Assembly (NCBI GenBank): GCA_028292045.1
Contig: JAQGMZ010000145.1
Span: forward strand, 1-50,400
Direction: 5' to 3'
DNA length: 50,400 bases
Origin: Polaromonas sp.
Lineage (GTDB): Bacteria; Pseudomonadota; Gammaproteobacteria; Burkholderiales; Burkholderiaceae_C
A model generated the notes under the pieces. The model saw only the letters and a program-made list of their open reading frames with translations. It had not been told where the DNA came from and did no database searches. This document shows positions 1,708-28,902 of this stretch, piece after piece. Both the position numbers and the translations under genes were made by a program. Position 1 is the stretch's first letter, and every line of letters starts with the position of its first letter.

Positions 1708-1736
1708 AGGCTAGCACATAACTGATATGCTGTCAG
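1708..1736 (-). promoter_or_regulatory. Putative sigma70 promoter for the SDR, overlapped by operator 1
   Basis: The minus strand reads CTGACA-N17-TAGCCT with an extended -10 TG. Confidence 0.45.
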
Positions 1737-1740
1737 TTAT
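1718..1740. promoter_or_regulatory. Palindromic operator copy 1
   Basis: ATAACTGA-tatgctg-TCAGTTAT, perfect 8-bp arms, in the divergent SDR/thiolase gap. Confidence 0.85.
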
Positions 1741-1764
1741 TTGAAATCTTCAGGAGATGACTGC

Positions 1765-2928
1765 ATGGCTTCTGCCGTTCCCGGCTCGTTGCGCGGCCGT
1801 GCCGCCATTGTGGGTGCCGCCACCTATGGCATTGGCGAATCGCCAGGCCAGCGCCCCCTGGACCTGGCCGCCCGGGCAGCCCGGCTGGCGTTGGACGATG
1901 CGGGCCTGGCGTTGCTTGACGTCGATGCCCTGTTCGTCTGCACGCCTGACGATGCGCTGTCAGGCCTGAGCGCTGCAGAATACCTGGGCATTCACCCCAA
2001 GTTCACCGAGAACAACCGCACCGGCGGCTCGGCTTTTCACTCGCACCTGATCGTCGCCTCGTTGATGCTCGACGCCGGTTTGTGCGACACCGCGCTCATC
2101 ATGTATGGCAGCAACCAGCGCACCTCCACCGGCGGCTTGGTGTCGATGCGCTTGCCTTCGCCCTACGAAAAACCTTACAAGCCGCTCACGCCGCTGTCGT
2201 CTTATGCACTGGCTGCCGCACGGCACATGCACCAGTACGGCACCACCCGCGCCGATCTGGCCGAAGTGGCCGTGGCAGCGCGGCGCTGGGCGCAGTTGAA
2301 CCCCGAGGCCTTCATGCGCGAGGAGCTGACGGTGGAAGACTGCCTCAAGGCCCGGCTGGTGTCCGATCCGCTGAGCGTGCGCGACTGTTGCCTGGTCACC
2401 GACGGCGCCGCCGCCGTGGTGCTGACGCGGGCTGACCGCGCGGCGCATCTCAAAAGCAAGCCAGTCTACATCCTTGGCGCTGCCGCTGCCACCTGGTACT
2501 CCGGGGTCGATCAGTCGCAGGACCTCACTGTCACCGCCGCCGCCGAGTCATCGCGACGCGCCTACGAGATGGCAGGCGTTTGCGCGGCCGACATCGATGT
2601 CGTCCAGGTCTACGACGCTTTTTCGATCAACACCCTGTTGTTTCTGGAAGACCTGGGTTTTTGCGCCAAAGGCGAGGGCGGCGCCTTTGTTCAAGGGGGG
2701 CGCATCGCCCCTGGTGGCGACCTGCCGGTCAATACCAACGGTGGCGGGCTGTCTTGCTGCCATCCCGGCATGTACGGCCTGTTCACGATGGTCGAATCGT
2801 GTGTGCAGCTGCGCGGGCAGGGCGGGGCGCGGCAGGTAGCCGGCGCCGAGATGGCGCTGGCGCATGCCAACGGCGGAACCCTGTCCAGCCAAGCTACTTT
2901 GATCCTGGGAACTTCAGCCACTTTATAA
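1765..2928 (+). CDS. Thiolase-fold protein (SCP2/Ltp-type)
   Basis: VRDCCLVTDG, VYDAF and NTNGGGLS motifs. ATG 1765 follows AGGAG (the track's TTG at 1741 is less likely). Confidence 0.9.
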   Translation: MASAVPGSLRGRAAIVGAATYGIGESPGQRPLDLAARAARLALDDAGLALLDVDALFVCTPDDALSGLSAAEYLGIHPKFTENNRTGGSAFHSHLIVASLMLDAGLCDTALIMYGSNQRTSTGGLVSMRLPSPYEKPYKPLTPLSSYALAAARHMHQYGTTRADLAEVAVAARRWAQLNPEAFMREELTVEDCLKARLVSDPLSVRDCCLVTDGAAAVVLTRADRAAHLKSKPVYILGAAAATWYSGVDQSQDLTVTAAAESSRRAYEMAGVCAADIDVVQVYDAFSINTLLFLEDLGFCAKGEGGAFVQGGRIAPGGDLPVNTNGGGLSCCHPGMYGLFTMVESCVQLRGQGGARQVAGAEMALAHANGGTLSSQATLILGTSATL

Positions 2929-2950
2929 CGCCGGGTACGAAGTGGCGCTC

Positions 2951-2979
2951 TTGTCAGCGCGGCGACAAACGGCTATAGT
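2951..2979 (+). promoter_or_regulatory. Putative sigma70 promoter
   Basis: TTGTCA-N17-TATAGT directly upstream of operator 2. Confidence 0.65.
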
Positions 2980-2981
2980 AA

Positions 2982-3004
2982 ATAACTGACACTTTATTAG
3001 TTTT
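2982..3004. promoter_or_regulatory. Palindromic operator copy 2
   Basis: ATAACTGA-cacttta-TTAGTTTT (2 mismatches in the right arm), just downstream of the -10 box. Confidence 0.75.
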
Positions 3005-3034: not shown

Positions 3035-3829
3035 ATGAATTTCGATGACTACAAGACGCTTAAATTCGAGCGCCGCGGCCGTATCCTGACCATCACGCTG
3101 AACCGCCCCGAAAAGCTCAACAGCCTGGCCGGCGAAGCCCACACCGAACTCTCGCGCGTGTTTTACGACGTGGTGGAAGACGCTGAAAGCGACATCATCG
3201 TGCTGACCGGCGCAGGCCGCGCTTTCAGTGCCGGCGGCGACATCGAGCACATGCAGTGGCTGCGTGACAATCCGCCCGCTTTCTACCAGGCCATTCGTGA
3301 AGCCAAGCGCATCGTCAGCAGCCTGCTGGAATGCGACAAGCCCATCATTGCCAAGATCAACGGCGACGCCATCGGCCTGGGCTCCACGCTGGCCGTCTGC
3401 AGCGACGTGATCTTTGCCGCCGACCATGCGCGTTTTGGCGATCCGCACAATAATGTCGCCCTGACTTCCGGCGATGGCGGCCAGATCATGTGGCCGCTCC
3501 TGATCGGTTACGCCCGTGCCAAGCATTATTTGCTGACCGGCGAAAAACTCAGCGCCACGGAGGCGGCCGAGATCGGGCTGATCAACAAGGCCATGCCCGC
3601 CGCCGAACTCGATGCCTACGTGGACGCCTATGCGGACAAGCTGGCCAAGATGCCGGTGCAGTCGCTGCGCTGGAGCAAATCGACCATCAACACGCCGCTG
3701 CGCCAGGCGGCCGCCAGCATGATGGACATGGGGATGGCCTATGAAAACCTGGCTGCCGTGACCCAGGACCACCAGGAAGCCATCAACGCCTTCCGCGAAA
3801 AGCGCAAACCCGAATTCAAGGGCTGCTAA
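3035..3829 (+). CDS. Enoyl-CoA hydratase/isomerase (crotonase) family protein
   Basis: LNRPEKLN, FSAGGD, AKINGDAIGLG motifs; GGAG RBS. Confidence 0.93.
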   Translation: MNFDDYKTLKFERRGRILTITLNRPEKLNSLAGEAHTELSRVFYDVVEDAESDIIVLTGAGRAFSAGGDIEHMQWLRDNPPAFYQAIREAKRIVSSLLECDKPIIAKINGDAIGLGSTLAVCSDVIFAADHARFGDPHNNVALTSGDGGQIMWPLLIGYARAKHYLLTGEKLSATEAAEIGLINKAMPAAELDAYVDAYADKLAKMPVQSLRWSKSTINTPLRQAAASMMDMGMAYENLAAVTQDHQEAINAFREKRKPEFKGC

Positions 3830-3840
3830 GGCGGGCCGGC

Positions 3841-4707
3841 ATGACGGCTCCCAACCTCTCGACGCCGGCGTGGGCCGCCTGGGCGCTGGCGCAGCCGGGG
3901 CAGCCGCTGCGGGTGCAGGTGGACGGCACCTCGCTGCACGCGCTGTGCTGGTCACTGGCCGACACCCACAAGCCGCCGCTGGTGTTCGTCCACGGCCACC
4001 GGGCGCATGCCCACTGGTGGGACTACATCGCGCCGTATTTTGCGCACACCCACCGCGTGTTCGCGATGGACCTGTCAGGCATGGGCGACAGCGGCCACCG
4101 CATCCACTACGCCAAGAAAGTTGGCGCGCACGACATCATCGGCCTGGTGCAGGCGCTGGAACTGGGGCCGGTGACGATGATCGGCCACAGCAACGGCGGC
4201 CTGCGCACGCTGGATGCCTGCGGCCTGGCGCCGGCGCTGTTCAAGCGCGCCATCGTGATCGACAGCTATGCGGTGTTCGAAGGCGGGGACCACCCCCGGC
4301 AACCGCCCGGGCTGCGCGGCGACCGGCTTTACCCGGACCGGGCGTCCGCCGTCGGGCGCTACCGCCTGCTGCCGGAACAACCGCATGTTGAACCCTGGGC
4401 ACTGGCGCACATCGCTCACCATTCGGTGCGCGAGGCCGAAGGCGGCTGGCGCTGGAAGTTCGATCCTTCGATGCCGTCCGGCCCGGACGAGGAGGACGAA
4501 GCGGCGGGCATGCTGGCCGCCGTACGCTGCCCGGTGCATTACGTCTATGGCGGCGCCAGCGCCATCGTGGGCCTTGCCTTGGCCCAGCGCATCGTGCGCC
4601 ACCTTCCCCAAGGCCACGGCCCCATCGTCATTCCCGGCGGCCACCACCACCTGATGTTCGATCAGCCGGTGGCCCTGATTTCCACCCTGCAGGCGCTGCT
4701 TGCCTAA
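3841..4707 (+). CDS. Alpha/beta hydrolase
   Basis: HG oxyanion, DLSGMGDS, GHSNGG nucleophile elbow, C-terminal GGHHH. Confidence 0.9.
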   Translation: MTAPNLSTPAWAAWALAQPGQPLRVQVDGTSLHALCWSLADTHKPPLVFVHGHRAHAHWWDYIAPYFAHTHRVFAMDLSGMGDSGHRIHYAKKVGAHDIIGLVQALELGPVTMIGHSNGGLRTLDACGLAPALFKRAIVIDSYAVFEGGDHPRQPPGLRGDRLYPDRASAVGRYRLLPEQPHVEPWALAHIAHHSVREAEGGWRWKFDPSMPSGPDEEDEAAGMLAAVRCPVHYVYGGASAIVGLALAQRIVRHLPQGHGPIVIPGGHHHLMFDQPVALISTLQALLA

Positions 4708-4726
4708 CAGCTATTTCTTTTAAACC

Positions 4727-5503
4727 ATGACCGAACTCGTGCTTGTCGAGACCCTGGGCGACCTGTCCATCGTCACGCTGAACAACCCCAAGACGCGCAA
4801 CGCCCTGTCGCGTGACCTGCTGCTGCTGCTGGCCGAAAAGCTGGAAGCGCTGCGGGCGGACAACGCTTGCCGGGGCATCGTGCTGACCGGCGCCCAAGGC
4901 CACTTTTGCGCGGGCGGCGATGTCTCGGGCATGTCCGCCGAACGCACCCTGCCGGTGGGGCGTGAACGCATGCTGGTGGCGCACCAGGTGGTGCGCCTGA
5001 TCAGCCAGATGGGCAAGCCCGTGGTGGCCGCCGTCGAAGGCTATGCGGCGGGGGCGGGGTTTTCGCTCGCCATGGTGGCCGATTGCGTTGTCGCCTCAAA
5101 GTCGGCAAAGTTTGTATCATCGTTTGCCAAAGTCAGCCTGCTGCCCGACATGGGCCTGATGTGGACACTGCCGCAACGCGTCGGCCTGGCCCAGGCCAAG
5201 CGCCTGATGATGACGGCCCGCGTGGTCGAGGCCGAAGAGGGGCTGCGGCTGGGCATGGTTGACGAGCTGTCAGACATGGGCCAGGCGGTGGATCGCGCCA
5301 AAACCCTGGCTACCGAACTGGCCGCGCATGCGCCCATTGCCATGGCGCTTTTAAAAGCTGCCTACGCCCGGGGCATCAACAAGCTGGACGACGCGCTGGC
5401 TTATGAAATGGACAACCAGGCTGCGCTTTACCTGACGAAAGACCACCGCGAAGCCGTCGCGGCTTTCCTTGAAAAGCGTCTCCCGGTTTTTCGCGGCATT
5501 TAA
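4727..5503 (+). CDS. Enoyl-CoA hydratase/isomerase family protein
   Basis: FCAGGD, AAVEGYAAGAG, LLPDMG motifs. Confidence 0.93.
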   Translation: MTELVLVETLGDLSIVTLNNPKTRNALSRDLLLLLAEKLEALRADNACRGIVLTGAQGHFCAGGDVSGMSAERTLPVGRERMLVAHQVVRLISQMGKPVVAAVEGYAAGAGFSLAMVADCVVASKSAKFVSSFAKVSLLPDMGLMWTLPQRVGLAQAKRLMMTARVVEAEEGLRLGMVDELSDMGQAVDRAKTLATELAAHAPIAMALLKAAYARGINKLDDALAYEMDNQAALYLTKDHREAVAAFLEKRLPVFRGI

Positions 5504-5512
5504 GGACACGGC

Positions 5513-6388
5513 ATGGCTCTTGATCTGGAAAAACTGCTGGCGCTGAAAATCCCCGACACCGCTCAAAGCTACACCTTCAAGGACTCGCTGCTGTATGCCG
5601 TGAGCCTGGGCTACGGCAGCGACCCGCTCCATACCCAAGAGCTGCCCTACGTTTTCGAGGGTGCAGACGGCGGCCAGCGCGTGGCGCCTTCGATGGGTGT
5701 GATCCTGGCCCATCCGGGCTACTGGCCGCGCACGCTCGACACCGGCCTGGACTGGGTGCGCATTGTGCATGCGGAGCAGGGCCTGGCGCTGCACCGTCCA
5801 TTGCCGGCGCAGGCCGAAGTCGTGGGCATTTCGCGGGTGGTCAGTGCCATCGACAAGGGCAAAGACAAGGGCGCGCTGATCACCTATGAGCGGAAAATCT
5901 TGGAGCGCGCCAGCGGCGAGCCTTTGTGCACCATCACCCAGGTGATGATGGCGCGGGGCGATGGCGGCTTTGGCGGCCCGGCGGCATCTGCGCCCCTGTC
6001 GCCCGGCATACCGGACCGCGCCCCTGACCGCGTTTGCGAATTGAGCACTGCACCGCAGATGGCCTTGCTGTACCGGCTCAATGCCGACTGGAACCCCCTG
6101 CACGCCGACCCGGCAGTGGCGCGCAAAGCCGGTTTCGAGCGCCCGATTCTGCATGGGCTGGCGAGCTGGGGCGTGGCGGTGCGCGCCGTGCTGAGCAGCG
6201 CTTTGGAGTACGACGCAGACCGCATGGCCTCTATTTTCGGGCGCTTCAGCGCCCCCGTGTATCCGGGCGAAACCTTGCGCACCGACCTCTGGCTGGAGCC
6301 GGACGCAGTGGCTTTTCGCGTCTGGGCCGTCGAGCGCAATGTCATGGTGATCAACAACGGCCGCGTTGGACTGCGCAACCGCATTTGA
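5513..6388 (+). CDS. MaoC-type (R)-specific enoyl-CoA hydratase, double hot-dog fold
   Basis: Hydratase-2 motif YRLNADWNPLHADP...PILHGL; N-terminal VHAEQ half. Confidence 0.92.
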   Translation: MALDLEKLLALKIPDTAQSYTFKDSLLYAVSLGYGSDPLHTQELPYVFEGADGGQRVAPSMGVILAHPGYWPRTLDTGLDWVRIVHAEQGLALHRPLPAQAEVVGISRVVSAIDKGKDKGALITYERKILERASGEPLCTITQVMMARGDGGFGGPAASAPLSPGIPDRAPDRVCELSTAPQMALLYRLNADWNPLHADPAVARKAGFERPILHGLASWGVAVRAVLSSALEYDADRMASIFGRFSAPVYPGETLRTDLWLEPDAVAFRVWAVERNVMVINNGRVGLRNRI

Positions 6389-6425
6389 AGGGCACCAGTT
6401 GCTTGTTGAAACCCGTACAACCCTC

Positions 6426-7982
6426 ATGACGCCCTTGCTGCTGAAGTCGCCTACCGTCTGGGGCCTCCTGGCGCGCCGCGCTGAAGAAAGCCCGGACGCG
6501 GCACTGGTCGTAGATGGCTTCAGTGGCGTGCGTTTGAATTGCGCCCAGGTGCTGCAGGCGGCGGAGCGGCTGGCCGCTGCATTGCTGGCGCAGGGCGTGC
6601 AGCCCGGCAGCGTGCTGACATGGCAATTGCCCACGGGTCTGGGCGCTTTTGTGCTGCAGCTGGCGCTGGCGCGGCTGTGCGTCGTGCAGAACCCGATGAT
6701 TTCGCTGTACGGCCCGGCCGAGGTGGAAGCGGTGCTGCGGCGCAACCGGTCCCAGTTCTACCTGGTGCCCCAGGACGGCGCCCAGGGACTCGAAGGCCGT
6801 GCTCAGGCCCTGCTGGCGCGCCTTTCTTCTAATGGTCCGCAGCTTATCGTGCTGCCCGACGAACTGCCCCAAGGCGATCCGGCCACCTTGCCGGCGCCGC
6901 CCGGGGATGGCAACCCGGTGCGCTGGATTTACCTGACCTCGGGTACCACGGCCGAACTCAAGGGCGCGCGCCACACCGACGAGTCCCTGCTGCGCGCCGG
7001 GCTGAACCTGGCGCAGGCGGTGCAGGCCGGGCCGGGGGACGTGGGCACCATCGCCTTCCCGATTGCCCATGTGGGCGGCATGATGAACACTATCTTGCTG
7101 CTGGCCAGCGGGGCCAGCGCGGTGCTGCTCCCGCGTTACCAGCCCGCCGAGGCGGTGGCCATTTTTGCGCGCCACGGCGTGACCGTGACGGGTGGCAGCA
7201 CGGCGCACTACCAGGCCTTGCTGGCCGAGCAGCGCCGCGACCCAAAGCAAATCCTGTTGCCCACCTTGCGCCTGCTGTCCGGCGGCGGTGCGCCCAAGCC
7301 GCCCGACCTGGTGGCCCAGGTGCATGACGAGCTGGGCTGCGTGCTGGCCCATGCCTACGGAATGACAGAAGCCCCGTTGATGGCCTCGTGCCGCGCCACC
7401 CATAGCCAGGAGCAGCTGGCCCACAGCGATGGCGCGGTGGTCGATGGCATGGAACTGCGCATCGTCAATAGCCAGGGCACCGAGGCCGCCAACGGCGAGG
7501 ACGGCGAAATCCGCGTGCGCGGACCGGGCGTGTTCAAGGGCTACACCGACGAATCCCTCAACGCGGCGGCGTTCGATGACGAAGGCTGGTTCCGCACCGG
7601 CGACCTGGGCCGCCTGCGCCCGGACGGGCATGTCGCCGTGACCGGGCGGCTCAAGGACGTGATCATCCGCAAGGGCGAGAACATTTCAGCGCGGGAGATC
7701 GAGGATTTGTTGTCAGGCCATCCGCGGGTGGGGGCCGTGGCGGTCATCGGTTTGCCTGACACCGAACGCGGCGAACGGGTCTGCGCCGTGGTTGAGCCCC
7801 GAGTGGCAGGCGAACACCTGGATTTCGCCGGCATGGTGGCCTGGTTCGAGAAAGCCGGCGTGATGCGGCAGAAAATTCCCGAACAACTCGAACTGATGGA
7901 CAGGCTGCCGCGCATGGCCTCGCTCAACAAGATTTCCAAGGCTGAACTTCGGCTGCGCTTTCAGGGCCCGCCGCCGCATTAA
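6426..7982 (+). CDS. Acyl-CoA synthetase (AMP-binding; cyclohexanecarboxylate-CoA ligase-like)
   Basis: YLTSGTT, YGMTE, GWFRTGDLG, GRLKDVIIRKGENIS. The start is uncertain (6399 TTG or 6426 ATG). Confidence 0.9.
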   Translation: MTPLLLKSPTVWGLLARRAEESPDAALVVDGFSGVRLNCAQVLQAAERLAAALLAQGVQPGSVLTWQLPTGLGAFVLQLALARLCVVQNPMISLYGPAEVEAVLRRNRSQFYLVPQDGAQGLEGRAQALLARLSSNGPQLIVLPDELPQGDPATLPAPPGDGNPVRWIYLTSGTTAELKGARHTDESLLRAGLNLAQAVQAGPGDVGTIAFPIAHVGGMMNTILLLASGASAVLLPRYQPAEAVAIFARHGVTVTGGSTAHYQALLAEQRRDPKQILLPTLRLLSGGGAPKPPDLVAQVHDELGCVLAHAYGMTEAPLMASCRATHSQEQLAHSDGAVVDGMELRIVNSQGTEAANGEDGEIRVRGPGVFKGYTDESLNAAAFDDEGWFRTGDLGRLRPDGHVAVTGRLKDVIIRKGENISAREIEDLLSGHPRVGAVAVIGLPDTERGERVCAVVEPRVAGEHLDFAGMVAWFEKAGVMRQKIPEQLELMDRLPRMASLNKISKAELRLRFQGPPPH

Positions 7983-8005: not shown

Positions 8006-8887
8006 TCAAACGTCGGTTCGCACCGTGCAGAGCATTTCCTGGCTGGCGCACGCCACCAGCCGGCCGGCCTGGTTGTACACCCGGCCCCAGACCAGCCCTC
8101 GCCCATCGGCCGCGCACGGGCTGACGGCATCGAACAGCAGCCACTCATCCGCCCGGCAGGGCGCATACGACCACAGCGAATGGTTCAGGCTGGCGACGTA
8201 GATGCGCTCGCGGGCGCCCTTCAGGCCAATGTGGGACGCGACGGCCGCGTAGTTGAACCAGAAATCCGAGATGTAAGCCAGCGCCGCCGCCTGCACGGCC
8301 GGGTCGTCGGGCAGCGGGTCGCGCGTCTTGACCCAATAGCGCAGCGTGGCCTCCCCGGCGGGCTGCAGCAGGAAGCGGCTGGCTTCTATCAGGCGAACGT
8401 CCAGAAAAGGACGGAACTGCAGGTCGTAGCGCTCCCCGGTGCTGTCGACGATGCGGGCCTCCAGTTCGGGAATGGTCGGCACGGCCTGCGGCGGCGGCAG
8501 GCCTGCCGGCATGGGGTCGGCATGCTCAAAGCCCTGGCCCGGCACCTGCAGCGTCACCTGTGCATCGGCAATGATGCGGCTGCCCTGGGTGGCGCGCAGG
8601 TGGCGGGTAGTGAAGCGGCTGCCTTCCTGCAGCGTGGTGGCCTGCCAGCGAATCGGCAGGTTGCCCAAGGCACCCTGAAGAAACCCCAGGCGCAGCGAAC
8701 TCAAGTGCCGCCCGGTCGTCCCCGCCACGGCGGCGCTCACCGCATGCGCCAGCAGCTGGCCGCCAAAGACGCGGCCGTTCTGGTTGCCGTCGAGCCGGTC
8801 GGACACCCAGGCTTGGTCGCCATCAGGCAGCAGGCGAAGCAAGGCCAGCAGATCGTTGCCCTGATTAAAGCCGGTGGATTCGTTCAT
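8006..8887 (-). CDS. Acyl-CoA thioesterase II (TesB family)
   Basis: RVFGGQLLA, ALAYISD, ASLNHSLW, ASQE motifs. Confidence 0.9.
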   Translation of the reverse strand: MNESTGFNQGNDLLALLRLLPDGDQAWVSDRLDGNQNGRVFGGQLLAHAVSAAVAGTTGRHLSSLRLGFLQGALGNLPIRWQATTLQEGSRFTTRHLRATQGSRIIADAQVTLQVPGQGFEHADPMPAGLPPPQAVPTIPELEARIVDSTGERYDLQFRPFLDVRLIEASRFLLQPAGEATLRYWVKTRDPLPDDPAVQAAALAYISDFWFNYAAVASHIGLKGARERIYVASLNHSLWSYAPCRADEWLLFDAVSPCAADGRGLVWGRVYNQAGRLVACASQEMLCTVRTDV

Positions 8888-8976: not shown

Positions 8977-8999
8977 ATAACTGACACATTAACAGTTAT
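8977..8999. promoter_or_regulatory. Palindromic operator copy 3
   Basis: ATAACTGA-cacatta-ACAGTTAT (1 mismatch) in the divergent tesB/amidohydrolase gap. Confidence 0.85.
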
Positions 9000-11885: not shown

Positions 11886-11902
11886 ACCCAAGGAACCGTT
11901 TA

Positions 11903-15098: not shown

Positions 15099-15113
15099 CC
15101 CAAGGAGACTCGC

Positions 15114-15917: not shown

Positions 15918-15933
15918 CAACAAGAAAGATCAC

Positions 15934-17565: not shown

Positions 17566-17566
17566 C

Positions 17567-20622: not shown

Positions 20623-20658
20623 GGTCTTGTCTTTTGATTTAGGAGGAGGTGTGGCCCG

Positions 20659-21738
20659 TCAAATGACCAGGCCGGCTTCAACCTGGGCGATGGCCGCCTG
20701 CAGGTCCTCGGCCTTGAGAGGGCGCACGAAGCGCTGCAGGCTCGGGCTGCCGAGCGTGCCCTGGATCAGCTGCGCCATTTCTGCGGGCAGGATGTTGGCC
20801 AGCTGCAACTCGACCAGCCGCGTCGGCAGGCCCAGGGTGGCGTACAGGTCCAGCATGTCGCGCAATTCGGCGGCTGGCCGCTGCTCCAGCGCCAGTTGCA
20901 CCAGCAGGCCATAGGCCACATGCTCGCCATGCAGGCTGCCCGCTGCGCGCGGCACCATCGGAATGCCGCGCGCCACCGCGTGCGAGACCGACAGCCCGCC
21001 ATTCTCAAAACTCATTGTGCTCAACAGCGTGGTGGCTTCGATCAGCGCCTCCACATCGTCGTTCAACTCGCCCTTTTCGATGGCGCTCAAGGCCGCAGCG
21101 CCATGGCGGAGAATCAGTGTGAAACACATCTCGGCCGCCATCAAGCCGGTGCGCGACGCCCGCGTGCCGTGCAGCGTGTTCGCGCCCGCGTCCACGCAGG
21201 CCTGGGCTTCGAATTTTTTTGAGATCGCGTCGCCAATGCCCGCCCGCAGGAAGCGCAGCGGGGCACTGGCCACAACGGCCGTATCGACCAGCACCAGCTC
21301 GGGGTTGCGCGGCATCATCCGCACCTCGACCATTTCATGCGCATCGTTGTAAATCGCGGCTGAAAAGCTGGCCGGCGCGTCGGTGGAGGCAATCGTCGGC
21401 ACGCTGGCAAAGCGGGCCTTGAAATGGATGCTGACCGCCTTGGCGGCGTCCAGCGCCTTGCCGCCGCCCACGCCAATCACCACGTCCGGTGTCAGATCAG
21501 CGGCTTGGGCGCAAAGCGCCTCGATGCTGGCGCCTGTCACTTCGCCGGAAAAATGGGCCAGCTGCAGCGCCAGGCCAGCTTCGGCATGGCTGGCTTCAAT
21601 ACGGCCCTGCAGCAGGGCGCGGATACCGGCATCGAGCACGACCAGAGGCCGCACGCCCAGCCGGGCCACTTCGACGCCCAGGCGATCAAGCACACCGGGC
21701 CCTTGGACATAGCGCGAGGGGGAGGAAAAGATCAGCAT
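20659..21738 (-). CDS. gldA: Glycerol dehydrogenase-like (family III metal-dependent polyol dehydrogenase)
   Basis: SPSRYVQG, GVGGGKALDAAK, PTIASTDAP, AGIGDA, FENGGLSVSH, LHGEHVAYG motifs. The symbol denotes family, not a proven substrate. Confidence 0.85.
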   Translation of the reverse strand: MLIFSSPSRYVQGPGVLDRLGVEVARLGVRPLVVLDAGIRALLQGRIEASHAEAGLALQLAHFSGEVTGASIEALCAQAADLTPDVVIGVGGGKALDAAKAVSIHFKARFASVPTIASTDAPASFSAAIYNDAHEMVEVRMMPRNPELVLVDTAVVASAPLRFLRAGIGDAISKKFEAQACVDAGANTLHGTRASRTGLMAAEMCFTLILRHGAAALSAIEKGELNDDVEALIEATTLLSTMSFENGGLSVSHAVARGIPMVPRAAGSLHGEHVAYGLLVQLALEQRPAAELRDMLDLYATLGLPTRLVELQLANILPAEMAQLIQGTLGSPSLQRFVRPLKAEDLQAAIAQVEAGLVI

Positions 21739-21782: not shown

Positions 21783-21805
21783 ATAACAGATAAAGTGTCA
21801 GTTAT
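21783..21805. promoter_or_regulatory. Palindromic operator copy 4
   Basis: ATAACAGA-taaagtg-TCAGTTAT (1 mismatch) in the divergent gldA/rubredoxin gap. The spacer is the reverse complement of the copy 2 spacer. Confidence 0.85.
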
Positions 21806-21853: not shown

Positions 21854-22021
21854 ATGAAAAAATGGCAATGCTTGTTCTGCAGTTTCATCTATGACCAGGC
21901 GCTTGGCCTGCCCGATGAGGGCATAGCCCCGGGCACTTCTTGGGAAGACGTGCCGGAGGATTGGAGCTGCCCCGATTGCGGGGCGGTCAAGTCCGACTTC
22001 GTCATGATGGAAGTCGGCTGA
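21854..22021 (+). CDS. Rubredoxin (55 aa; absent from the ORF track)
   Basis: [55 protein letters not shown], with CxxC...WxCPxCG. Confidence 0.95.
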
Positions 22022-22042: not shown

Positions 22043-24274
22043 CTAGCTGCGCGAGCGCGGCAGGCCCAGGCCCTGCTCCGCAATCAGGCTGCGCTGCACC
22101 TCGCTGGTGCCGCCATAGATCGTCATGCCGATCGCCTGGCGGTAGCCCAATTCGACCACGCCGGCATCTTCGGCATCTTCGAACAGCGATTCCGGCGCAG
22201 CCATGTCCATCAGCTCATTGGCGTCGCGCCAGTACATCTCGGTGCTGAACACCTTGGACATGGGCCCCCAGGCGGCGCGGCCCGGCACGCGTTCGTGCAC
22301 GCCCCAGATGGTGCGATGGCACAGCACTTCCGACACCATGGTGCGCACCGCCACGGCCGCCAGGCGCGTGCGTACATTGTCATGGTCGATCAGCGGCCGG
22401 CCATCGCGCGTCTTGCGCCGCGCCCAGGCCAGGGCATGGCGCAGCATCTGCCGGTAGCTCAGGCGGTACTGGTCGCCGCCGTGCTCCAGTTCCAGCGTGG
22501 CCGCCATCACGTCCAGGCCACCGTTGACGGCGCCGATGCGGTAGCGGTCATGCACCCGGACTCCGTCGAGATAGGTGATGTTGGTGCGCTCGTCCTGCAG
22601 CGTGTGGACCGGCTGCAGGCTGATGCCCGGCAGGTCCATGGGCACCAGGAACAGGCTCAGGCCCTTGTGCTTGGGCACGTCGGGGTCGGTGCGGACGAGC
22701 AAAAAGATGTAGTGCGCCAGGTTGCCCGCGGTGGTGAAGATTTTCTGGCCGTCGATCACCCAGTGGTCACCGTCCTGCACCGCGCGGGTGCGGGCGGAAA
22801 ACACATCGCAACCGCTGGACGGTTCGCTGAACCCCAGGCAGCCCAGCGCTTGTGCGCTGGCAAAGCGGGGCAGGGCTTCCCGTTTGACTTCGTCGGTGGC
22901 AAAGCGCATGACGATCTGCGCCACCTGGTTGGTGACGGGTCCGGTGATGCGTTCCCAGCCAAACTCCTCAAACACCTCGCCCAGCGCGGCCATGTCGAAC
23001 GGGCTTTTGCCGCGCCCGCCAAATTCCGCCGGCCAGTGTGGGAACAGCAGGCCGGCTTCGGCCAGCTGGCGGCTGAAGCCGGCATGGTAGCCCGCCACCG
23101 AATGATGCGCATGTGCGCGCAGTTCGGGCGTCATGTTCGTTTCGAAAAAATGCCGTACCTCTCGGCCAAAGGCTTCGGCTGCTTCGCCCACACCAAACTG
23201 CAGGGTCACCTCGCCCGGCACCGGCACCGGCACCTCGGCGCCGGACCACAGGCGGTTGGCCAGGCGCTGAAGTTCACCATGGGCATCGCCCAGCGGCAAG
23301 GTCCAGGCCCGGGCGCGCCGGTAGTAAAGCTGAATGTCGTATTCCAGCGAGACGCCATAGCCGCCAAAAGTGTGCAGCGCCCGCGCCGTGGCGCGTGGGG
23401 CCGACTGCGCTGCCCACCACCAGGCCATTGAAATGGCTGCAGAAGCTTCTTGGGGCCGATGCGCCAGCGCCCAGACAGCACGCCAGACCAGCAGCTTGGC
23501 GCCGTCAATCTCGGTCAGGGCATCGGCCAGCGGATGGGCAATGCCCTGGAAACTGCCAATCGCCTTGCCGAACTGGTGGCGCTCTGTGGCATAGGCGGCG
23601 GCCATGTCCAGGGCGCGGCGTGACAAGCCGGCCAGCATGGCGGCGTTGAGCAGCTTCCATTCCTCGATAGCGGCCAGGAATGCCGCCCGCGCCTGCGGGC
23701 CCTGCGCCAGCACCTGTGCGCCGCTCGGGCGTGTCGCACCCGGGGCGAGACGTGGAACGGCCATTGCGGCCGCGCCCATGCTGTGGCGGACATCCAGGTT
23801 TTCGCGCTCCACCAGCAGGACCGCATCGCCTTCGAGCAGCAGCGCGGCCTTGGCGCCGCAGCCGCCGGGGACGACTGTCAACGACTCCGCATTCAACTCG
23901 GCCGGCGCCATCACGACCAGCGCGCCACCCTGCACCCGCTCCAGCCAGGCGGCTGCCGCGCTGCCATCGAGTTGCGCCAGCAGCCGCGCGCCAGTCAAGG
24001 CTTCGGCCAGCGGCACGGCGGCCCCATGCGCGCCAGCAATTTCGGCCACCAGCACCGCCTCCAGCAAGCCCGTGCCGGCCGGCGCATCGGCTTCGGGCAC
24101 GCGCATGGTGGCAAAGCCCAGCTCAACCAATTGCTGCCAAAGCGCACGGTCAAAACCCGGCGTTGAGCCATTTGTTTCAGCGGCTCGAACGCGCTGGGGC
24201 GTCGATTCGGCGGCGAACAGGCGGGTTGCCGCTTCTTGCAGCATCTGCTGCTCGGGAGTCAGTAAGAGGTTCAT
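22043..24274 (-). CDS. Fused two-module acyl-CoA dehydrogenase (FadE34-like architecture)
   Basis: N-terminal half is small-subunit-like (RHQFGKAIGSFQGIAH, HTFGGYG). C-terminal half is large-subunit-like (LGFSEPSSGCD, DGQKIFTT, TIYGGTSEVQR). 743 aa. Confidence 0.92.
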   Translation of the reverse strand: MNLLLTPEQQMLQEAATRLFAAESTPQRVRAAETNGSTPGFDRALWQQLVELGFATMRVPEADAPAGTGLLEAVLVAEIAGAHGAAVPLAEALTGARLLAQLDGSAAAAWLERVQGGALVVMAPAELNAESLTVVPGGCGAKAALLLEGDAVLLVERENLDVRHSMGAAAMAVPRLAPGATRPSGAQVLAQGPQARAAFLAAIEEWKLLNAAMLAGLSRRALDMAAAYATERHQFGKAIGSFQGIAHPLADALTEIDGAKLLVWRAVWALAHRPQEASAAISMAWWWAAQSAPRATARALHTFGGYGVSLEYDIQLYYRRARAWTLPLGDAHGELQRLANRLWSGAEVPVPVPGEVTLQFGVGEAAEAFGREVRHFFETNMTPELRAHAHHSVAGYHAGFSRQLAEAGLLFPHWPAEFGGRGKSPFDMAALGEVFEEFGWERITGPVTNQVAQIVMRFATDEVKREALPRFASAQALGCLGFSEPSSGCDVFSARTRAVQDGDHWVIDGQKIFTTAGNLAHYIFLLVRTDPDVPKHKGLSLFLVPMDLPGISLQPVHTLQDERTNITYLDGVRVHDRYRIGAVNGGLDVMAATLELEHGGDQYRLSYRQMLRHALAWARRKTRDGRPLIDHDNVRTRLAAVAVRTMVSEVLCHRTIWGVHERVPGRAAWGPMSKVFSTEMYWRDANELMDMAAPESLFEDAEDAGVVELGYRQAIGMTIYGGTSEVQRSLIAEQGLGLPRSRS

Positions 24275-25401
24275 GCATGCATTTCAAAAAGTTCGCTGCT
24301 GCGCAGCAGGTGAAAGTCGGCGTCACCCAGCCGCTTGTCGAAGCTGACCATGGCCTTGTAATGGTGGCCCACCGCGTATTCCTCGGTAACGCCAATGCCG
24401 CCATGGAGCTGGATGCCCTGGCCGCTGACAAACAAGCCGGCCCGTGAAATCAACCACTTGGCTGCTGACAGCGCTTGCGCGGCAGCCAGTGGTTCGCCTG
24501 TCTCGACAGCGGCAATGGCGCGGTACAGGGCGGCTCGGGATTGATCGGTTTCGACGAACATCTCGGCCATGCGGTGCTGCAGGGCCTGAAAGCGCGCCAG
24601 TGGCTGGCCGTACTGGACGCGGGTCTTGAGGTAGTCGGCGGTCATGGCCATGACCGCCTCCATTGAGCCGATGGCGGCGGCGCACAGGGCCAGCAACGCC
24701 TGGTTGAGGGCGCTTTGCAGGGCAGTGTTGGCTTTGTCCGGCATCAAAAGCAAGGCATCGGCGCTCAGCGCGACATCTTCAAAGTGCAGGTCTGCTGCAT
24801 AAGTACCGTCGATCATCAGGTGCGATTGGACGGTTGCACCCGCTGCATTGCGTTCCACGGCGAACAGGGCAAAACCTTCATGGCCGTCGATGCGCGCCGT
24901 GGCCAGCCAATGCGATGCGCTGGCGCCATGGCGCACCAGATGCTTGGTGCCGCTGAGCCGCCAGCAATCGCCGTCGCGGCGGGCATGCGACGCGACACGC
25001 GCTTCGAATTCGCTGCGGTCGCCGCCTTCCATGTGGGCCAGGGTAACAATGGCGTCGCCAGCGGCCAATGCCTCAAGCAGCGCGGTCGGGCGGCCTTGCG
25101 CCTGCGCCAGCAAAGCGCCGCACAGCACGCTGCTTTCGACTACCGGCTCATTCACCAGGCCACGGCCGAACTCTTCCATCAGCAAGGCCATCTCGACCGG
25201 CCCACCGCCCAGTCCGCCCAGTGCTTCAGGCACCGGCAGCGCCAGCCAGCCCATGTTGGCGAAGTCGGCCCAGTGCACGCGTGAAAAACCGTCGGCGGTG
25301 CGCGACATCTCGCGCTTTTTTTCAAGCGTGCAGCGTTCGCGCACGTAGCGTCGTGCGGCCTCGGCCAGCATGCGCTGCTCGTCGGAAAAATTGAAATCCA
25401 T
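24271..25401 (-). CDS. Acyl-CoA dehydrogenase, small/beta subunit (PimD-like)
   Basis: MDFNFSDEQ, RVQYGQPLARFQALQHR, QLHGGIG motifs. Confidence 0.92.
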   Translation of the reverse strand: MDFNFSDEQRMLAEAARRYVRERCTLEKKREMSRTADGFSRVHWADFANMGWLALPVPEALGGLGGGPVEMALLMEEFGRGLVNEPVVESSVLCGALLAQAQGRPTALLEALAAGDAIVTLAHMEGGDRSEFEARVASHARRDGDCWRLSGTKHLVRHGASASHWLATARIDGHEGFALFAVERNAAGATVQSHLMIDGTYAADLHFEDVALSADALLLMPDKANTALQSALNQALLALCAAAIGSMEAVMAMTADYLKTRVQYGQPLARFQALQHRMAEMFVETDQSRAALYRAIAAVETGEPLAAAQALSAAKWLISRAGLFVSGQGIQLHGGIGVTEEYAVGHHYKAMVSFDKRLGDADFHLLRSSELFEMHA

Positions 25402-25413
25402 GCCTGTATTTCC

Positions 25414-26616
25414 TTAGAAACCGAACGCCACTTTGGCGATGATGTTCTTCTGTACTTCCTTGGCGCCGCCGAAGATCGTGCAGGCGCGCAGGTACATCTG
25501 GTCAACCGTGACGCCCGGCGTCACATCGGGCCAGAGCAGGTCGTCATCGGCATCGGCAAAGCCCTGCTCGCGGGTGTATTCGCGCAGCGCACGCGGCCCC
25601 AGCGCCTCGGTGGCGAGTTCGCTCAGGCTTTGCTGCAACTCGGAGCCGCGAATCTTCAGCACCGAGGCGCAGGCGGTCACGGGATGCTCCGAAGGCGCTT
25701 GCGCCAGCACCCGCAGCACCGACCACTCCAACGTGCGCACCTCGATTTCCAGCGCGGCCAGCTTGCGGCAAAAAGCCGGGTCTTCAATGAGTGGACGGCC
25801 GTTGCGCTGCTCGATGGCGGCAATGCTGCGGATGCGCGCCAGATCGCCGAAGGCCTTGTGGATGTCGGCGCTCGACGTGCGCTCATTGCCCAGCAAAAAT
25901 TTCGCCTGCGCCCAGCCCGTGCCCGGCTCGCCGATCAGGCTGTCTTTGGGCACGCGCACGTTGTCGAGAAAAACCTCGCAGGTGGACACGTCGCCGTTGA
26001 TCATCTGGATCGTGCGCACCGTCACGCCGGGCGTGTTCATGTCGAGCACGATCATCGAGATGCCCTGTTGCGGGCGTTCGGTCTGCGCTGTTCGAACCAG
26101 GAAAAAACCCATGTTCGAGTACTGCCCTTCGGTGGTCCAGAGTTTTTGGCCGTTGATGACCCACTCGTCGCCGTCGAGCACGGCCGTGGTTTTGAGGGCA
26201 ACCAGGTCCGAACCGGCGCCGGGTTCCGAAAAACCCTGAGCCCAGCATTCGTCGCCGTTCAGGATGGGCGGCAGGTAGCGCGCCTTTTGCGCCGGGGTGG
26301 CGAAGGTGTAGATCACCGGCCCCACCAGCTTGATGCCCTGCCAGCGCAGTTCGGGTGCATGCGCCAGGTGGCTTTCGTAGCTGAAGATGTGCTGCTGGAG
26401 CGGCGACCAGCCAGTGCCGCCGTATTCCTGCGGCCAGGCCGGGGCCGCCCAGCCGCGCTTGTTCAGCACGCGGTTCCACCAGAGGCGGTCGTCGTTGTGA
26501 GGGGGGTGCATGGCAATGCGGCTGCGGCGCGCCACTTCGGCTGGAATGTTCTCGCGCAGGAAGGCGCGGACTTCATCGCGGAAAGCCTGGTCGGCCGAGG
26601 ACAGATGCAGGTTCAT
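25414..26616 (-). CDS. Acyl-CoA dehydrogenase, large/alpha subunit (PimC-like)
   Basis: WAQGFSEPGAGSDL, INGQKLWTT, LGNER, TIFGGAKEVQKNII. The likely start is ATG 26616; the track ORF to 27108 overlaps the ligase. Confidence 0.92.
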   Translation of the reverse strand: MNLHLSSADQAFRDEVRAFLRENIPAEVARRSRIAMHPPHNDDRLWWNRVLNKRGWAAPAWPQEYGGTGWSPLQQHIFSYESHLAHAPELRWQGIKLVGPVIYTFATPAQKARYLPPILNGDECWAQGFSEPGAGSDLVALKTTAVLDGDEWVINGQKLWTTEGQYSNMGFFLVRTAQTERPQQGISMIVLDMNTPGVTVRTIQMINGDVSTCEVFLDNVRVPKDSLIGEPGTGWAQAKFLLGNERTSSADIHKAFGDLARIRSIAAIEQRNGRPLIEDPAFCRKLAALEIEVRTLEWSVLRVLAQAPSEHPVTACASVLKIRGSELQQSLSELATEALGPRALREYTREQGFADADDDLLWPDVTPGVTVDQMYLRACTIFGGAKEVQKNIIAKVAFGF

Positions 26617-26627
26617 GAAGGTGCCTT

Positions 26628-28178
26628 TCAGTGCGCGTGCTGCTGGCGCAGCAGCTTTTTGTCGATCTTGCCGGTCACCAGCTTGGGCAGCGTGGCCAGC
26701 ACGATCACCCGTTTCGGTTTTTTGTAGCTGGCGATCTGCGTCTTGGTGAAGTCGATGACCTCCTGCTCGCCGGGCTCGGCCGTGCCGGGGCGCAGCACGA
26801 TCAGGGCGCAGACGTTCTCGCCCCACTTGGGGTCGGGCAGCCCGATAACGGCACATTCGGCAACGGCCGGGTGGCGCAGCACGGCTTCCTCCACCTCGCG
26901 CGAGTAGATGTTCTCGCCGCCGGACAGGATCATGTCTTTTTTGCGGTCCACCAGGAACAAGAATCCGTCGTCGTCGATGTAGCCCATGTCGCCGGTGTGG
27001 ATCCAGCCGTCGCGCACGGTCTCCAGCGTGGCGGCGTGGTTGTTCCAGTAGCCGCGAAACTGTGCGACGAAGCGCGCCGTGATCTCGCCCGGTACGTTGC
27101 GCGGGCATTCGCTGCCCTGCTCATCGACGATGCGCGACTGCAGGTTGGGGTAGGGGTTGCCAACCGAACGCAAGCGCTGCCTTTCGCGCTCGGTGCCGCT
27201 CGGCTTGTGCTGCGACTTGGTCAGGGCGTACATGCAGATTTCGCTCTGGCCGTACAGGTTGACGAAGATGTCGCCGAACTTGGCCATGGCTTTTTCCAGC
27301 ACCGGCAGCGGCATCGGCGCGGCCGAGTACATCAAGGTGCGCAACTTGTCTCCCCTGACCTGGTCGATGGCCGGGTGCTCCATCACCATCTGCACCATGG
27401 TGGGCGCCAGCAGCAGGAAGGTGAGCTGGTCGCGGTCGAGCGCCTCAATTACCGCGCCAGGTTCAAACTGGCGGTGCAAAAAGACCGTGCCGCCGCGCAC
27501 ATGCAGCGTCAGGCTGATCAACATGCCGCCGATGTGGAACATGGGCATGACAATCAAGCCGCGCTCGGTCTGCTCCACGCCCGAGAGCCAGGCATCGACC
27601 TGGGCCAGGTGGCGGTACTCGCGGTGCCCCCAGATGCAGCCCTTGGGCCGGCCCGTGGTTCCGCTGGTGTAGATCAAGCAGGCGATGTCATCCTCGCGGG
27701 CGCGCTGGGGCGGGCCGGCCGGGTCACCGGTGGCCACGAAGTCTTCATAGCTCATGGCCCACTCGGTGCGTCCGCCAATGCAGACATAGGTGCGGATGCC
27801 CGGCAGCTGGGCGCGCAGCTGCTCGACCACGGGCAGGTACTGCGCCTCAAAAATCAAAACGGCCGGGCTGCTGTCTTCCAACATCATGCGCATTTCCGGA
27901 GGCGCCAAGCGCCAGTTCAATCCGGCCAGAATATAGGCCCCCCACTGGGTCGCGGCCATGACCTCGCCGAATTCGATGCAATTCATGGCCAGCATGGCTA
28001 CTCGCTCCTGGCGCCGGGTGCCCGCTGTGTGCAGTGCAGAAGCCAGTTGTCTGGCGCGTACCAGCAACTGCGCATGGGTGATCTGGCGGTCATCCTGCAC
28101 ATAGGCCGGCGTCTGGCCAAACCAGTTGGCGTTGTGTTCCAGGTCGTCGGCAAAGGACAGCGGCAGATGGGCTTGCAT
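26628..28178 (-). CDS. Long-chain acyl-CoA synthetase (AMP-binding)
   Basis: YTSGTTGRPKG, YGQSE, GWIHTGDMG, DRKKDMILSGGENIY motifs. Confidence 0.93.
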   Translation of the reverse strand: MQAHLPLSFADDLEHNANWFGQTPAYVQDDRQITHAQLLVRARQLASALHTAGTRRQERVAMLAMNCIEFGEVMAATQWGAYILAGLNWRLAPPEMRMMLEDSSPAVLIFEAQYLPVVEQLRAQLPGIRTYVCIGGRTEWAMSYEDFVATGDPAGPPQRAREDDIACLIYTSGTTGRPKGCIWGHREYRHLAQVDAWLSGVEQTERGLIVMPMFHIGGMLISLTLHVRGGTVFLHRQFEPGAVIEALDRDQLTFLLLAPTMVQMVMEHPAIDQVRGDKLRTLMYSAAPMPLPVLEKAMAKFGDIFVNLYGQSEICMYALTKSQHKPSGTERERQRLRSVGNPYPNLQSRIVDEQGSECPRNVPGEITARFVAQFRGYWNNHAATLETVRDGWIHTGDMGYIDDDGFLFLVDRKKDMILSGGENIYSREVEEAVLRHPAVAECAVIGLPDPKWGENVCALIVLRPGTAEPGEQEVIDFTKTQIASYKKPKRVIVLATLPKLVTGKIDKKLLRQQHAH

Positions 28179-28199
28179 GGGGCGCGGCTCCTTGGAGAT

Positions 28200-28826
28200 T
28201 TAAGCGTTGGCGCCGCGCAACGCAGCTTCGACCGCAGCCTGCGTCGTGATCGTGGCGTACAGCGGGAGCAGGTTGCGCAGCACAAATTCATGCGATTCAA
28301 CCGTGGCGCCGGCAATGCAGTCCTCTGGCACCAGTACCTGGTAACCCAAGTCCGAACCTGCCAGCGCAGTGGCATTGACCGCCACATTGGTCGAGACGCC
28401 CACCACCACCAAGGTTTTTACGCCCAGATGGCGCAGCGTCGTGTCCAGTTCGGTGCCGTGGAAAGAACCCAGCGCGAAACGGCGCGATTGAACATGGTCG
28501 CTTTCCTGAGGCTCCAGGCCGGGCATGGCTTCGACGTCCATGCTGCCAGCCTTCATGTGGCCCTTCTTGACCGAGCTGGCAATGATCCAGCTGGTGCGGG
28601 GCACGTCGGCATAGTCGGGTCGGTGCGCGACATGCAAATGAACAACCGGCATTTTCGCGTTGCGAAAAACTTGCGCAAGGCGGGCAATGCGAGGCACGAT
28701 GCCGCGTGCGCTGGCCTGTTCGGACAAGGTAGCAAAAGGCGAGAGCCCTGGCTCCAGAACACCGCGCTGGCATTCGCTGATGAGCAGGGCAGTGCGGATT
28801 CCCGCTTCTAGGCCGCGAAGTGACAT
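28200..28826 (-). CDS. Isochorismatase/cysteine-hydrolase family protein
   Basis: ALLISECQ, SFHGTELD..LR.LGV.TLVVVGVSTNVAV, GYQVLVPEDC motifs; GGAG RBS. Confidence 0.88.
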   Translation of the reverse strand: MSLRGLEAGIRTALLISECQRGVLEPGLSPFATLSEQASARGIVPRIARLAQVFRNAKMPVVHLHVAHRPDYADVPRTSWIIASSVKKGHMKAGSMDVEAMPGLEPQESDHVQSRRFALGSFHGTELDTTLRHLGVKTLVVVGVSTNVAVNATALAGSDLGYQVLVPEDCIAGATVESHEFVLRNLLPLYATITTQAAVEAALRGANA

Positions 28827-28879
28827 TGTTAGCTCCGTAGTTGCTGTCCAACCGTAAAGGTAGGTATTTCAGAACCATC

Positions 28880-28902
28880 ATAACTGATATATCGTCAGTT
28901 AT
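28880..28902. promoter_or_regulatory. Palindromic operator copy 5
   Basis: ATAACTGA-tatatcg-TCAGTTAT, perfect arms, ~55 bp upstream of the isochorismatase-ligase-ACAD operon. Confidence 0.85.

What the first reader, a model, noticed from the sequence alone, without database searches (positions are those of the whole stretch)
1718..28902. Five-copy 23-bp operator defines a ~28-kb catabolic regulon whose regulator is not in the island
Seen: ATAACTGA-N7-TCAGTTAT at 1718, 2982, 8977, 21783 and 28880 (0, 2, 1, 1 and 0 arm mismatches). Oriented spacers CAGCATA, CACTTTA, CACATTA, CACTTTA and CGATATA extend the consensus to about ATAACTGAC(A)nnnTATCAGTTAT. The five sites head all eight apparent transcription units (three divergent pairs and two single operons), and I saw none elsewhere. 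Two sit just after well-spaced sigma70 promoters (TTGTCA-N17-TATAGT; TTGACG-N17-CATAGT) and one overlaps a -35. Inference: one repressor (TetR-like geometry, possibly acyl-CoA-responsive) controls the whole island as one pathway. No regulator gene lies within 765-28826; it may be beyond the IS5 at the left edge. I do not recognise the motif as a described operator.
Basis: partly seen in the sequence, partly recalled or inferred. Interest (0 to 1): 0.85.

Follow-up and report, generated by a model that had tools for sequence, protein, structure and literature searches.

The report
Operator of an undescribed TetR regulon
Five copies of a 23-base palindrome sit at the starts of this cluster of fat-like-acid breakdown genes, and eight more sit in a sister cluster elsewhere in the same genome that encodes the TetR-type repressor likely to bind them, which makes this an apparently undescribed example of a familiar kind of bacterial gene switch.

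Summary
The five sites are real (chance 0.02) and head all eight transcription units. They are half of a larger set. A matrix from them finds 8 more sites on contig C216, a second CoA-catabolic cluster that encodes a TetR_C_38 repressor with a site upstream of itself. In relative G629 both clusters and the TetR form one continuous ~56-kb island, with operators kept at matching promoters. Around 62 foreign loci of this TetR subfamily lie 119 sites (0.4 in shuffles). In 400 same-family genomes only the 2 with this TetR have several sites. Consensus: AWAACTGAY-N5-RTCAGTTWT. The regulator is therefore likely found, not missing, and nothing ties it to the IS5 side. Binding, repression, inducer and substrate are untested. 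The enzymes (two predicted diiron C-H hydroxylases, a rubredoxin, steroid-side-chain-like beta-oxidation) suggest a branched or cyclic, terpenoid-like acid. I found no description of this operator or subfamily. The scan has logged similar TetR/acyl-CoA regulons in other genomes, but not this motif. Verdict: new member of a known kind.

The parts
1718..1740 (.). Operator 1, between divergent SDR (765-1661, -) and SCP2-type thiolase (1765-2928, +); overlaps a predicted -10 (+) and a predicted -35 (-)
   Evidence: kept in G629 at 146551 while the flanks diverge
2982..3004 (.). Operator 2, just after TTGTCA-17-TATAGT, ahead of the 3035-7982 operon
   Evidence: kept in G629 at 145239
8977..8999 (.). 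Operator 3, just after TTGACG-17-CATAGT, between tesB (-) and the 9023-18481 operon (+)
   Evidence: kept in G629 at 137380
21783..21805 (.). Operator 4, between the gldA-like operon (-) and rubredoxin (+)
   Evidence: kept in G629 at 122852
28880..28902 (.). Operator 5, ahead of the 28826-22043 operon (-)
   Evidence: weaker counterpart (16.2 bits) in G629 at 115626
765..1661 (-). Unit 1: SDR dehydrogenase
1765..2928 (+). Unit 2: SCP2/Ltp2-type thiolase-fold protein (PRK06158 over cut-off)
3035..7982 (+). Unit 3: enoyl-CoA hydratase, alpha/beta hydrolase, enoyl-CoA hydratase, MaoC double-hotdog hydratase, acyl-CoA ligase
8006..8887 (-). Unit 4: TesB-like acyl-CoA thioesterase
9023..18481 (+). 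Unit 5: predicted amidohydrolase-related dinuclear oxygenase (DitZ-like), thiolase-fold protein plus ChsH2-type OB-fold partner (11517-11885), SDR, class III CoA transferase, epoxide hydrolase, metal hydrolase, acyl-CoA ligase, alpha/beta hydrolase
   Evidence: oxygenase motifs as defined in PMC13154177 section 7
18611..21738 (-). Unit 6: GldA-family iron alcohol dehydrogenase, enoyl-CoA hydratase, MFS transporter
21854..22021 (+). Unit 7: 55-aa rubredoxin
   Evidence: PF00301, E 6e-21
22043..28826 (-). Unit 8: isochorismatase-family hydrolase, acyl-CoA ligase, PimC/PimD-like acyl-CoA dehydrogenase pair, fused two-domain acyl-CoA dehydrogenase
1..734 (-).

Best explanation
The 23-bp palindrome AWAACTGAY-N5-RTCAGTTWT is likely the operator of the TetR_C_38-subfamily protein encoded on contig C216 (26157-26930, minus strand), which would repress all eight units of this window and the sister CoA-catabolic cluster on C216 as one regulon. 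Shown: the sites, their places at gene starts, 8 more sites on C216 (one upstream of the TetR gene), the single continuous island in G629, and the co-occurrence of motif and TetR across genomes. Inferred: a TetR dimer sits on or just after the promoter and blocks RNA polymerase. Its helix-turn-helix would read the ACTGAY half-sites, and its conserved basic N-terminal arm (N[KQ]QGQxLGxKG) would grip the A/T-rich outer bases, as SimR's arm does. Inferred, less sure (about even odds): a CoA thioester made by the island's own ligases binds the C-terminal pocket and releases the repressor; the free acid is the alternative. Inferred, weakest (about 40%): the substrate is a branched or polycyclic isoprenoid-type acid, hydroxylated by two diiron oxygenases and a Rieske enzyme (rubredoxin a possible electron donor) and cut by steroid-side-chain-like beta-oxidation. 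IS activity, rearrangement or an assembly break has separated the window from the regulator in this genome.
For: A matrix from the 5 window sites puts the 8 C216 sites within the next 10 ranks of the 3.3-Mb genome. A matrix from 113 foreign sites ranks exactly these 13 on top, with a gap from 23.8 to 18.6 bits. G629:C90 94-150 kb holds the TetR (72%), 19 of 25 C216 query proteins and 26 of 26 window proteins (55-87%, same order), with sites at 4 of 5 matching promoters at 19.6 bits or more and a fifth at 16.2. 62 loci fetched by TetR similarity alone hold 119 sites in 724,021 bases, against 0.4 in shuffles and 1 in 3,247,108 bases of the rest of G000. 103 of 119 lie outside ORF bodies (ORFs cover 77%), and the spacer is strict: 95 hits at 5 bases, 0-1 at each other length from 2 to 8. 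After grouping at 70% identity, 12 of 12 groups with a locus of 8 kb or more have a site. Of 400 family genomes, the 2 with the TetR are the only ones with more than one site (3 and 7). 0 sites in 4 plasmid CoA loci without this TetR (134,621 bases) and in 14 other CoA-gene contigs of G000. Of 9 other TetRs and the window's MerR, only two hit any of 46 site-region stretches, once each. The model has a full TetR fold (pLDDT 90.5), nearest EthR and DesT. The N-terminal arm is kept in 112 of 120 homologs.
Against: No binding or expression data. C15 and C216 are not joined in this assembly (81% complete), so another regulator on a missing contig cannot be excluded. Only 28 of 59 foreign TetR genes have a site of 16 bits or more within 400 bases upstream, and 15 of 62 loci have none at 19 bits; these are mostly short loci or a ~41%-identity clade with weaker sites. 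G629 holds the same TetR contig as L006, and the search pattern came from loci that include L006, so only G658 is an independent hit in the 400-genome test. That test scored at most 7 candidates per genome. The C216 seed sites were first picked by likeness to the window motif. Two of five window sites have no clear sigma-70 promoter on the needed strand. Nothing here identifies the ligand: EthR and DesT are only ~20% identical.
Confidence: 0.88

Rival explanations
1. The sites are read by a different regulator encoded on a contig missing from this MAG (for example beyond the IS5), and the C216 TetR only travels with the same genes.
For: The assembly is 81% complete. The sequence left of the IS5 insertion point seen in public contigs is not in G000. 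Other regulators (MarR, LysR, IclR) lie in some related loci.
Against: The TetR is the only regulator tested that is common to the site-bearing loci. It has a site upstream of itself in G000 and in 28 of 59 foreign loci. G658, picked out by the motif, has two members of the subfamily inside its site cluster. My comparison of G629's island found no other regulator, but it used only G000 proteins as queries.
Confidence: 0.06
2. The TetR binds the sites but activates some promoters, or the two clusters respond separately through paralogous TetRs with near-identical motifs.
For: Sites between divergent genes lie 44-89 bases upstream of one partner. Some relatives carry two paralogs in one island (Massilia putida plasmid; G658).
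Against: At the clearest promoters the site covers the -10, the -35 or the expected start, which is repressor geometry. G000 has one member of the subfamily, and one matrix fits both clusters.
Confidence: 0.05
3. The palindromes are not protein operators: they are chance AT-rich promoter sequence, RNA hairpins or mobile-element scars.
For: One arm (CTGACA) resembles a -35 hexamer, and the sites are AT-rich in a 63% GC genome.
Against: Strict 5-base spacer, conservation against diverged flanks, absence from other promoters of the genome, and co-occurrence with one transcription-factor subfamily.
Confidence: 0.01

Closest known systems
KstR / KstR2 regulons of actinobacterial steroid catabolism (recalled; KstR also mentioned in PMC8700777 passages)
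   Same: A TetR repressor with palindromic operators before many CoA-catabolic operons, autoregulation, and targets of the same families (paired acyl-CoA dehydrogenases, MaoC, ChsH2/Ltp2-type aldolase pairs, a KshA-like Rieske protein).
   Different: Different operator (KstR TnnAACnnGTTnnA, recalled) and a different TetR subfamily (no KstR among PDB sequence hits or the listed fold hits); found in Pseudomonadota; I saw no steroid ring-cleavage genes in either cluster.
EdcR of Caenibius tardaugens, estrogen catabolism (PMC8700777, passages read)
   Same: Proteobacterial TetR repressor of a lipophilic-compound catabolic cluster; its proposed 23-bp palindrome overlaps the -10 box and has AC-N5-GT at the same positions.
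   Different: EdcR's operator is TnnCnnTACnAnTnGTAnnGnnA and its C-terminal domain is PF16859; here AWAACTGAY-N5-RTCAGTTWT and PF19352.
FadP, PsrA and LiuQ regulons (PMC5343134, passages read)
   Same: TetR-family regulators of fatty-acid or branched-chain acyl-CoA catabolism in proteobacteria, with palindromic sites reconstructed by comparative genomics.
   Different: FadP is described as the general fatty-acid regulator of Comamonadaceae, Ralstonia and Burkholderia; this TetR is rare (0 of 36 same-genus and 2 of 400 family genomes) and tied to one island. Their motifs (recalled, not in the passages) do not match.
dit cluster for abietane diterpenoid catabolism, and DitZ/PtmU3 oxygenases (PMC10710418 and PMC13154177, passages and one section read)
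   Same: The window's amidohydrolase is closest in PDB to DitZ (E 6e-107) and PtmU3 and carries both oxygenase motifs; the CoA ligase, SCP2-thiolase and SDR toolkit is similar.
   Different: No DitA1-type ring-hydroxylating dioxygenase lies in the operator-bearing islands of G000, G629 or G658. DitK could not be compared directly.
SimR (PMC3241653, abstract and outline read)
   Same: A TetR with a basic N-terminal arm that binds the minor groove beside the operator: a model for the conserved arm here.
   Different: Controls an antibiotic efflux pump; no relationship in sequence or motif was tested.

Membership tests
TetR-family operator/regulon | Palindromic site repeated at promoters of functionally linked operons | tested here: met
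TetR-family operator/regulon | Candidate regulator has a TetR HTH and a helical C-terminal ligand domain | tested here: met
   PF00440 (24.8 bits, 22.1 and under the cut-off) plus PF19352; AlphaFold model matches EthR and DesT
TetR-family operator/regulon | Site and regulator co-occur across genomes, with a site upstream of the regulator gene | tested here: met
   upstream site in G000 and in 28 of 59 foreign loci
TetR-family operator/regulon | Direct binding, repression and release by a ligand | not testable with these tools
   needs EMSA, reporters or a knockout
EdcR regulon | Operator TnnCnnTACnAnTnGTAnnGnnA and a PF16859 C-terminal domain | tested here: not met
FadP regulon | Lineage-wide regulator of general fatty-acid degradation in Comamonadaceae | tested here: not met
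   TetR in 0 of 36 same-genus and 2 of 400 family genomes; sites confined to two contigs
KstR/KstR2 regulon | KstR-type operator and protein subfamily | tested here: not met
   consensus differs from the recalled motifs; no KstR among the PDB hits shown
dit cluster (abietane catabolism) | DitA1 ring-hydroxylating dioxygenase in the cluster (essential per PMC10710418) | tested here: not met
   PF00848 hits lie outside the operator-bearing islands in G000, G629 and G658
dit cluster (abietane catabolism) | Regulator orthologous to DitK | not tested
   no DitK sequence could be fetched
Amidohydrolase-related dinuclear oxygenases (target genes 9023-10312 and C216:8216-9418) | PF04909 fold with N-terminal D-x-H and C-terminal D-x-P-H-x-D/E | tested here: met
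   DDH and DYPHSD; DQH and DWPHPE; activity untested

The most novel reading that the evidence does not exclude
An unstudied TetR subfamily (PF19352, basic N-terminal arm) and its 23-bp operator mark a mobile ~55-kb pathway, scattered across alpha-, beta- and gammaproteobacteria, that degrades an unidentified class of terpenoid-like acids. It would use diiron amidohydrolase-fold hydroxylases fed by rubredoxin together with steroid-side-chain-type beta-oxidation, without the known dit or steroid ring-cleavage entry enzymes. The repressor-operator pair would be a ready reporter for finding the substrate.
Probability: 0.3. Interest if true: 0.62.

Novelty: new member of a known kind. Interest (0 to 1): 0.4.

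Why it matters
The switch is a familiar type, so its logic would not surprise a specialist. What it adds is a regulator-operator pair I could not find described, backed by more than 100 natural sites. It ties about 50 generically annotated genes into one pathway, seen in named records of Pseudomonas, Massilia and Azospirillum among others. That makes an unknown catabolic route testable: a reporter built from the TetR and one operator can be screened for the inducer, which would give substrates to two predicted diiron C-H hydroxylases and could yield a biosensor.

Tried and rejected
A class-wide search found the TetR in 0 of 399 other genomes (1 more not scored), so it gave no test set. Six family genomes have a single motif hit (the reversed control pattern gives 5); 5 of the 6 were checked and have no such TetR; I treat them as chance. 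I expected the divergent clade (L053-L063) to use another motif; it shows weaker versions of the same one. The window's MerR (30415-31458) and 9 other G000 TetRs were rejected as regulators. Linking the contigs: C216's right end overlaps only C138, and no overlap was found for the window's ends; the IS5-free flank seen in runs X1 and X3 is not in G000. No RNA holder listed. PDB searches for the ligase, the fused dehydrogenase and G629's P450 gave only distant, uninformative hits. NCBIfam has no model for the TetR at E 1e-8; none of the named members of 8 homolog clusters has a specific name. Literature: 'TetR + AACTGAC + operator' gave 43 papers, of which the 20 listed were unrelated; PF19352/TetR_C_38 gave 0; the DUF1302/DUF1329, dit and RegPrecise searches gave no description of this regulon. 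The LB400 dit record and paper were not held. No supplements were read; RegPrecise and Prodoric could not be queried.
Full report
Observation. Pfam and NCBIfam annotation shows a dense CoA-catabolic island from 765 to 28826. Two small genes had to be added: a ChsH2-type OB-fold protein (11517-11885) and a rubredoxin (21854-22021), which supplies the third divergent pair. The island has 26 genes in eight units, no gap over 135 bases and no regulator hit. Each site lies 23-89 bases from a start codon. Sites 2982 and 8977 begin 2-3 bases after good -10 hexamers, and site 1718 overlaps a -10 on one strand and a weaker -35 on the other. For 21783 and 28880 I found no promoter on the needed strand.

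The genome holds more sites. At up to 3 mismatches the 7-base spacer gives 14 hits in G000: 5 here, 6 on contig C216 and 3 scattered; other spacers give 0-4 each. A matrix from the five window sites ranks 8 C216 sites (2664, 9510, 11743, 20643, 23714, 24624, 24787, 27036) within the next 10 places. C216 is a second CoA-catabolic cluster: four acyl-CoA dehydrogenases, thiolases, MaoC, ChsH2, a KshA-like Rieske oxygenase, an old-yellow-enzyme reductase and SDRs. It also carries a TetR_C_38 gene at 26157-26930 with site 27036 upstream of it. This is the only member of its subfamily among the ten TetR_N genes of G000.

The motif follows this TetR. I fetched 62 loci by TetR similarity alone. The window matrix finds 119 sites of 19 bits or more in their 724,021 bases, in 47 of 62 loci. 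Block shuffles give 0.4, and the rest of G000 gives 1 in 3,247,108 bases. 103 of the 119 lie outside ORF bodies, 99 lie within 250 bases upstream of an ORF start, and only the 5-base spacer between 9-base half-sites works (95 hits against 0-1). Grouped at 90% TetR identity, 23 of 25 groups with a locus of 8 kb or more have a site; at 70%, 12 of 12. Two annotated plasmids agree: Massilia putida 6NM-7 has 7 sites and Azospirillum sp. B510 has 2, each beside orthologs of window genes. The consensus is AWAACTGAY-N5-RTCAGTTWT. A matrix rebuilt from 113 foreign sites ranks exactly the 13 G000 sites first (its seed sites were first chosen by likeness to the window motif).

Reverse test and controls. 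In 400 genomes of the same family the TetR was found in 2 (at most 7 candidates scored per genome). The pattern occurred more than once only in those 2: G629 (3 sites) and G658 (7). Six genomes had a single hit, against 5 for the reversed control. G629 carries the same TetR contig as L006 and is not independent; G658 is. Four plasmid CoA loci with homologs of the window's amidohydrolase but no such TetR in the stretch have 0 sites in 134,621 bases, as do 14 other CoA-gene contigs of G000. The nine other TetRs and the window's MerR are almost absent from 46 site-region stretches (two single hits). Against: 15 of 62 loci lack a 19-bit site, mostly short loci or a distant clade with weaker sites, and only 28 of 59 TetR genes have an upstream site of 16 bits or more.

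One island, split here. On G629:C90 the TetR (94234), 19 of 25 C216 query proteins and all 26 window proteins (55-87% identical, same order) run continuously from 94 to 150 kb. Four window operators have counterparts at the same promoters, standing out as conserved blocks in diverged spacers, and the fifth has a weaker one. There the TetR lies about 21 kb beyond the isochorismatase end, with a P450 and an SDR at the junction; G000 has no close match to that P450 (best 29%). In G000 the contigs are not joined. The IS5 at 1-734 is absent at this spot in contigs of two public runs of one study, and their flank is not in the assembly. The missing regulator is thus a result of rearrangement or assembly, and the guess that it lies beyond the IS5 is not shown. 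The TetR was not found in 36 same-genus or 399 same-class genomes, which fits a rare, mobile island.

Mechanism. The predicted structure is a full TetR fold (pLDDT 90.5), nearest to EthR and DesT at about 20% identity. The recognition segment is T/S-S-S/P-A-S/T-F-Y in most homologs, and a basic N-terminal arm is kept in 112 of 120. I infer a dimer that blocks RNA polymerase, with the arm reading the A/T-rich ends as in SimR (PMC3241653, abstract). Release by a CoA thioester rests on analogy with DesT, FadR and KstR (PDB titles; recall) and is about even odds against the free acid. On substrate: the window's amidohydrolase is closest to DitZ and PtmU3, and it and its C216 counterpart carry both motifs that define dinuclear oxygenases (PMC13154177 section 7). 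Two of the three residues used there to predict the metal point to diiron; the third I did not check. With the rubredoxin, the Rieske enzyme, paired dehydrogenases and ChsH2/thiolase pairs, this suggests a branched or polycyclic isoprenoid-type acid. That is inference at about 40%.

Comparison and novelty. It works like KstR/KstR2 (recalled) and EdcR but is neither: EdcR's operator and domain differ (PMC8700777, passages). It is not FadP, which is described as lineage-wide (PMC5343134, passages). It is not the dit cluster, since no DitA1-type dioxygenase lies in the islands (PMC10710418, passages), though DitK itself was not compared. Passages of PMC13063091, PMC6891630 and PMC7145413 added nothing. 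Ten literature searches found no description of this operator or subfamily; subscription papers, supplements and RegPrecise were not seen. The scan's index has no look-alike of the TetR, the amidohydrolase gene or the window stretch, and no note on this genome. It lists 27 findings under the same general words, of which the 8 shown are TetR/acyl-CoA regulons in other genomes; my two motif words occur in no finding.

Verdict. Observation confirmed; interpretation partly supported. A well-supported, apparently undescribed TetR regulon of an ordinary kind, controlling a pathway whose substrate is unknown. Interest 0.4.

Noticed in passing
window 9011-10312 (+) and G000:C216:8216-9418 (-): Both 'amidohydrolases' carry the D-x-H and D-x-P-H-x-D/E motifs of dinuclear oxygenases and are probably C-H hydroxylases; the first is closest to DitZ in PDB. 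A third homolog (55%) lies on C261 with no operator nearby.
   Followed up: partly
window 21854-22021 (+): A 55-aa rubredoxin with its own operator-controlled promoter, 87% identical in G629; a possible electron donor for the oxygenases or for the P450 present in G629.
   Followed up: partly
window 1-734: The IS5-type transposase reads across two frames, and the element is absent at this spot in contigs of runs X1 and X3, so the insertion varies within the population.
   Followed up: partly
window 22043-24274 (-): A 743-aa acyl-CoA dehydrogenase with two dehydrogenase halves in one chain, 79% identical in G629.
   Followed up: no
G629:C90:50-94 kb; G000 contigs C261, C8, C45, C138: A further ~45 kb of lipophilic-compound catabolic genes adjoins the island in G629 and matches four other G000 contigs; it has its own TetR and only one strong site (55341, 22 bits), which G000 lacks.
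   Followed up: partly
G000:C216:18692-20592 (-): A pantoate-beta-alanine-ligase-like gene and a DapB-N/diaminopentanoate-dehydrogenase-like gene sit under operator 20643; no match to them was found in G629's island. They may hint at amide or amine chemistry.
   Followed up: no
window 31875-37871 (+): Outside the island: multicopper oxidase, unknown ORF, SCO1-cytochrome c fusion and a MauG/MbnH-like di-haem protein in one run.
   Followed up: no
window 49397-50213: Imperfect repeats of about 280 bases at the right end, with similar sequence on C196.
   Followed up: no
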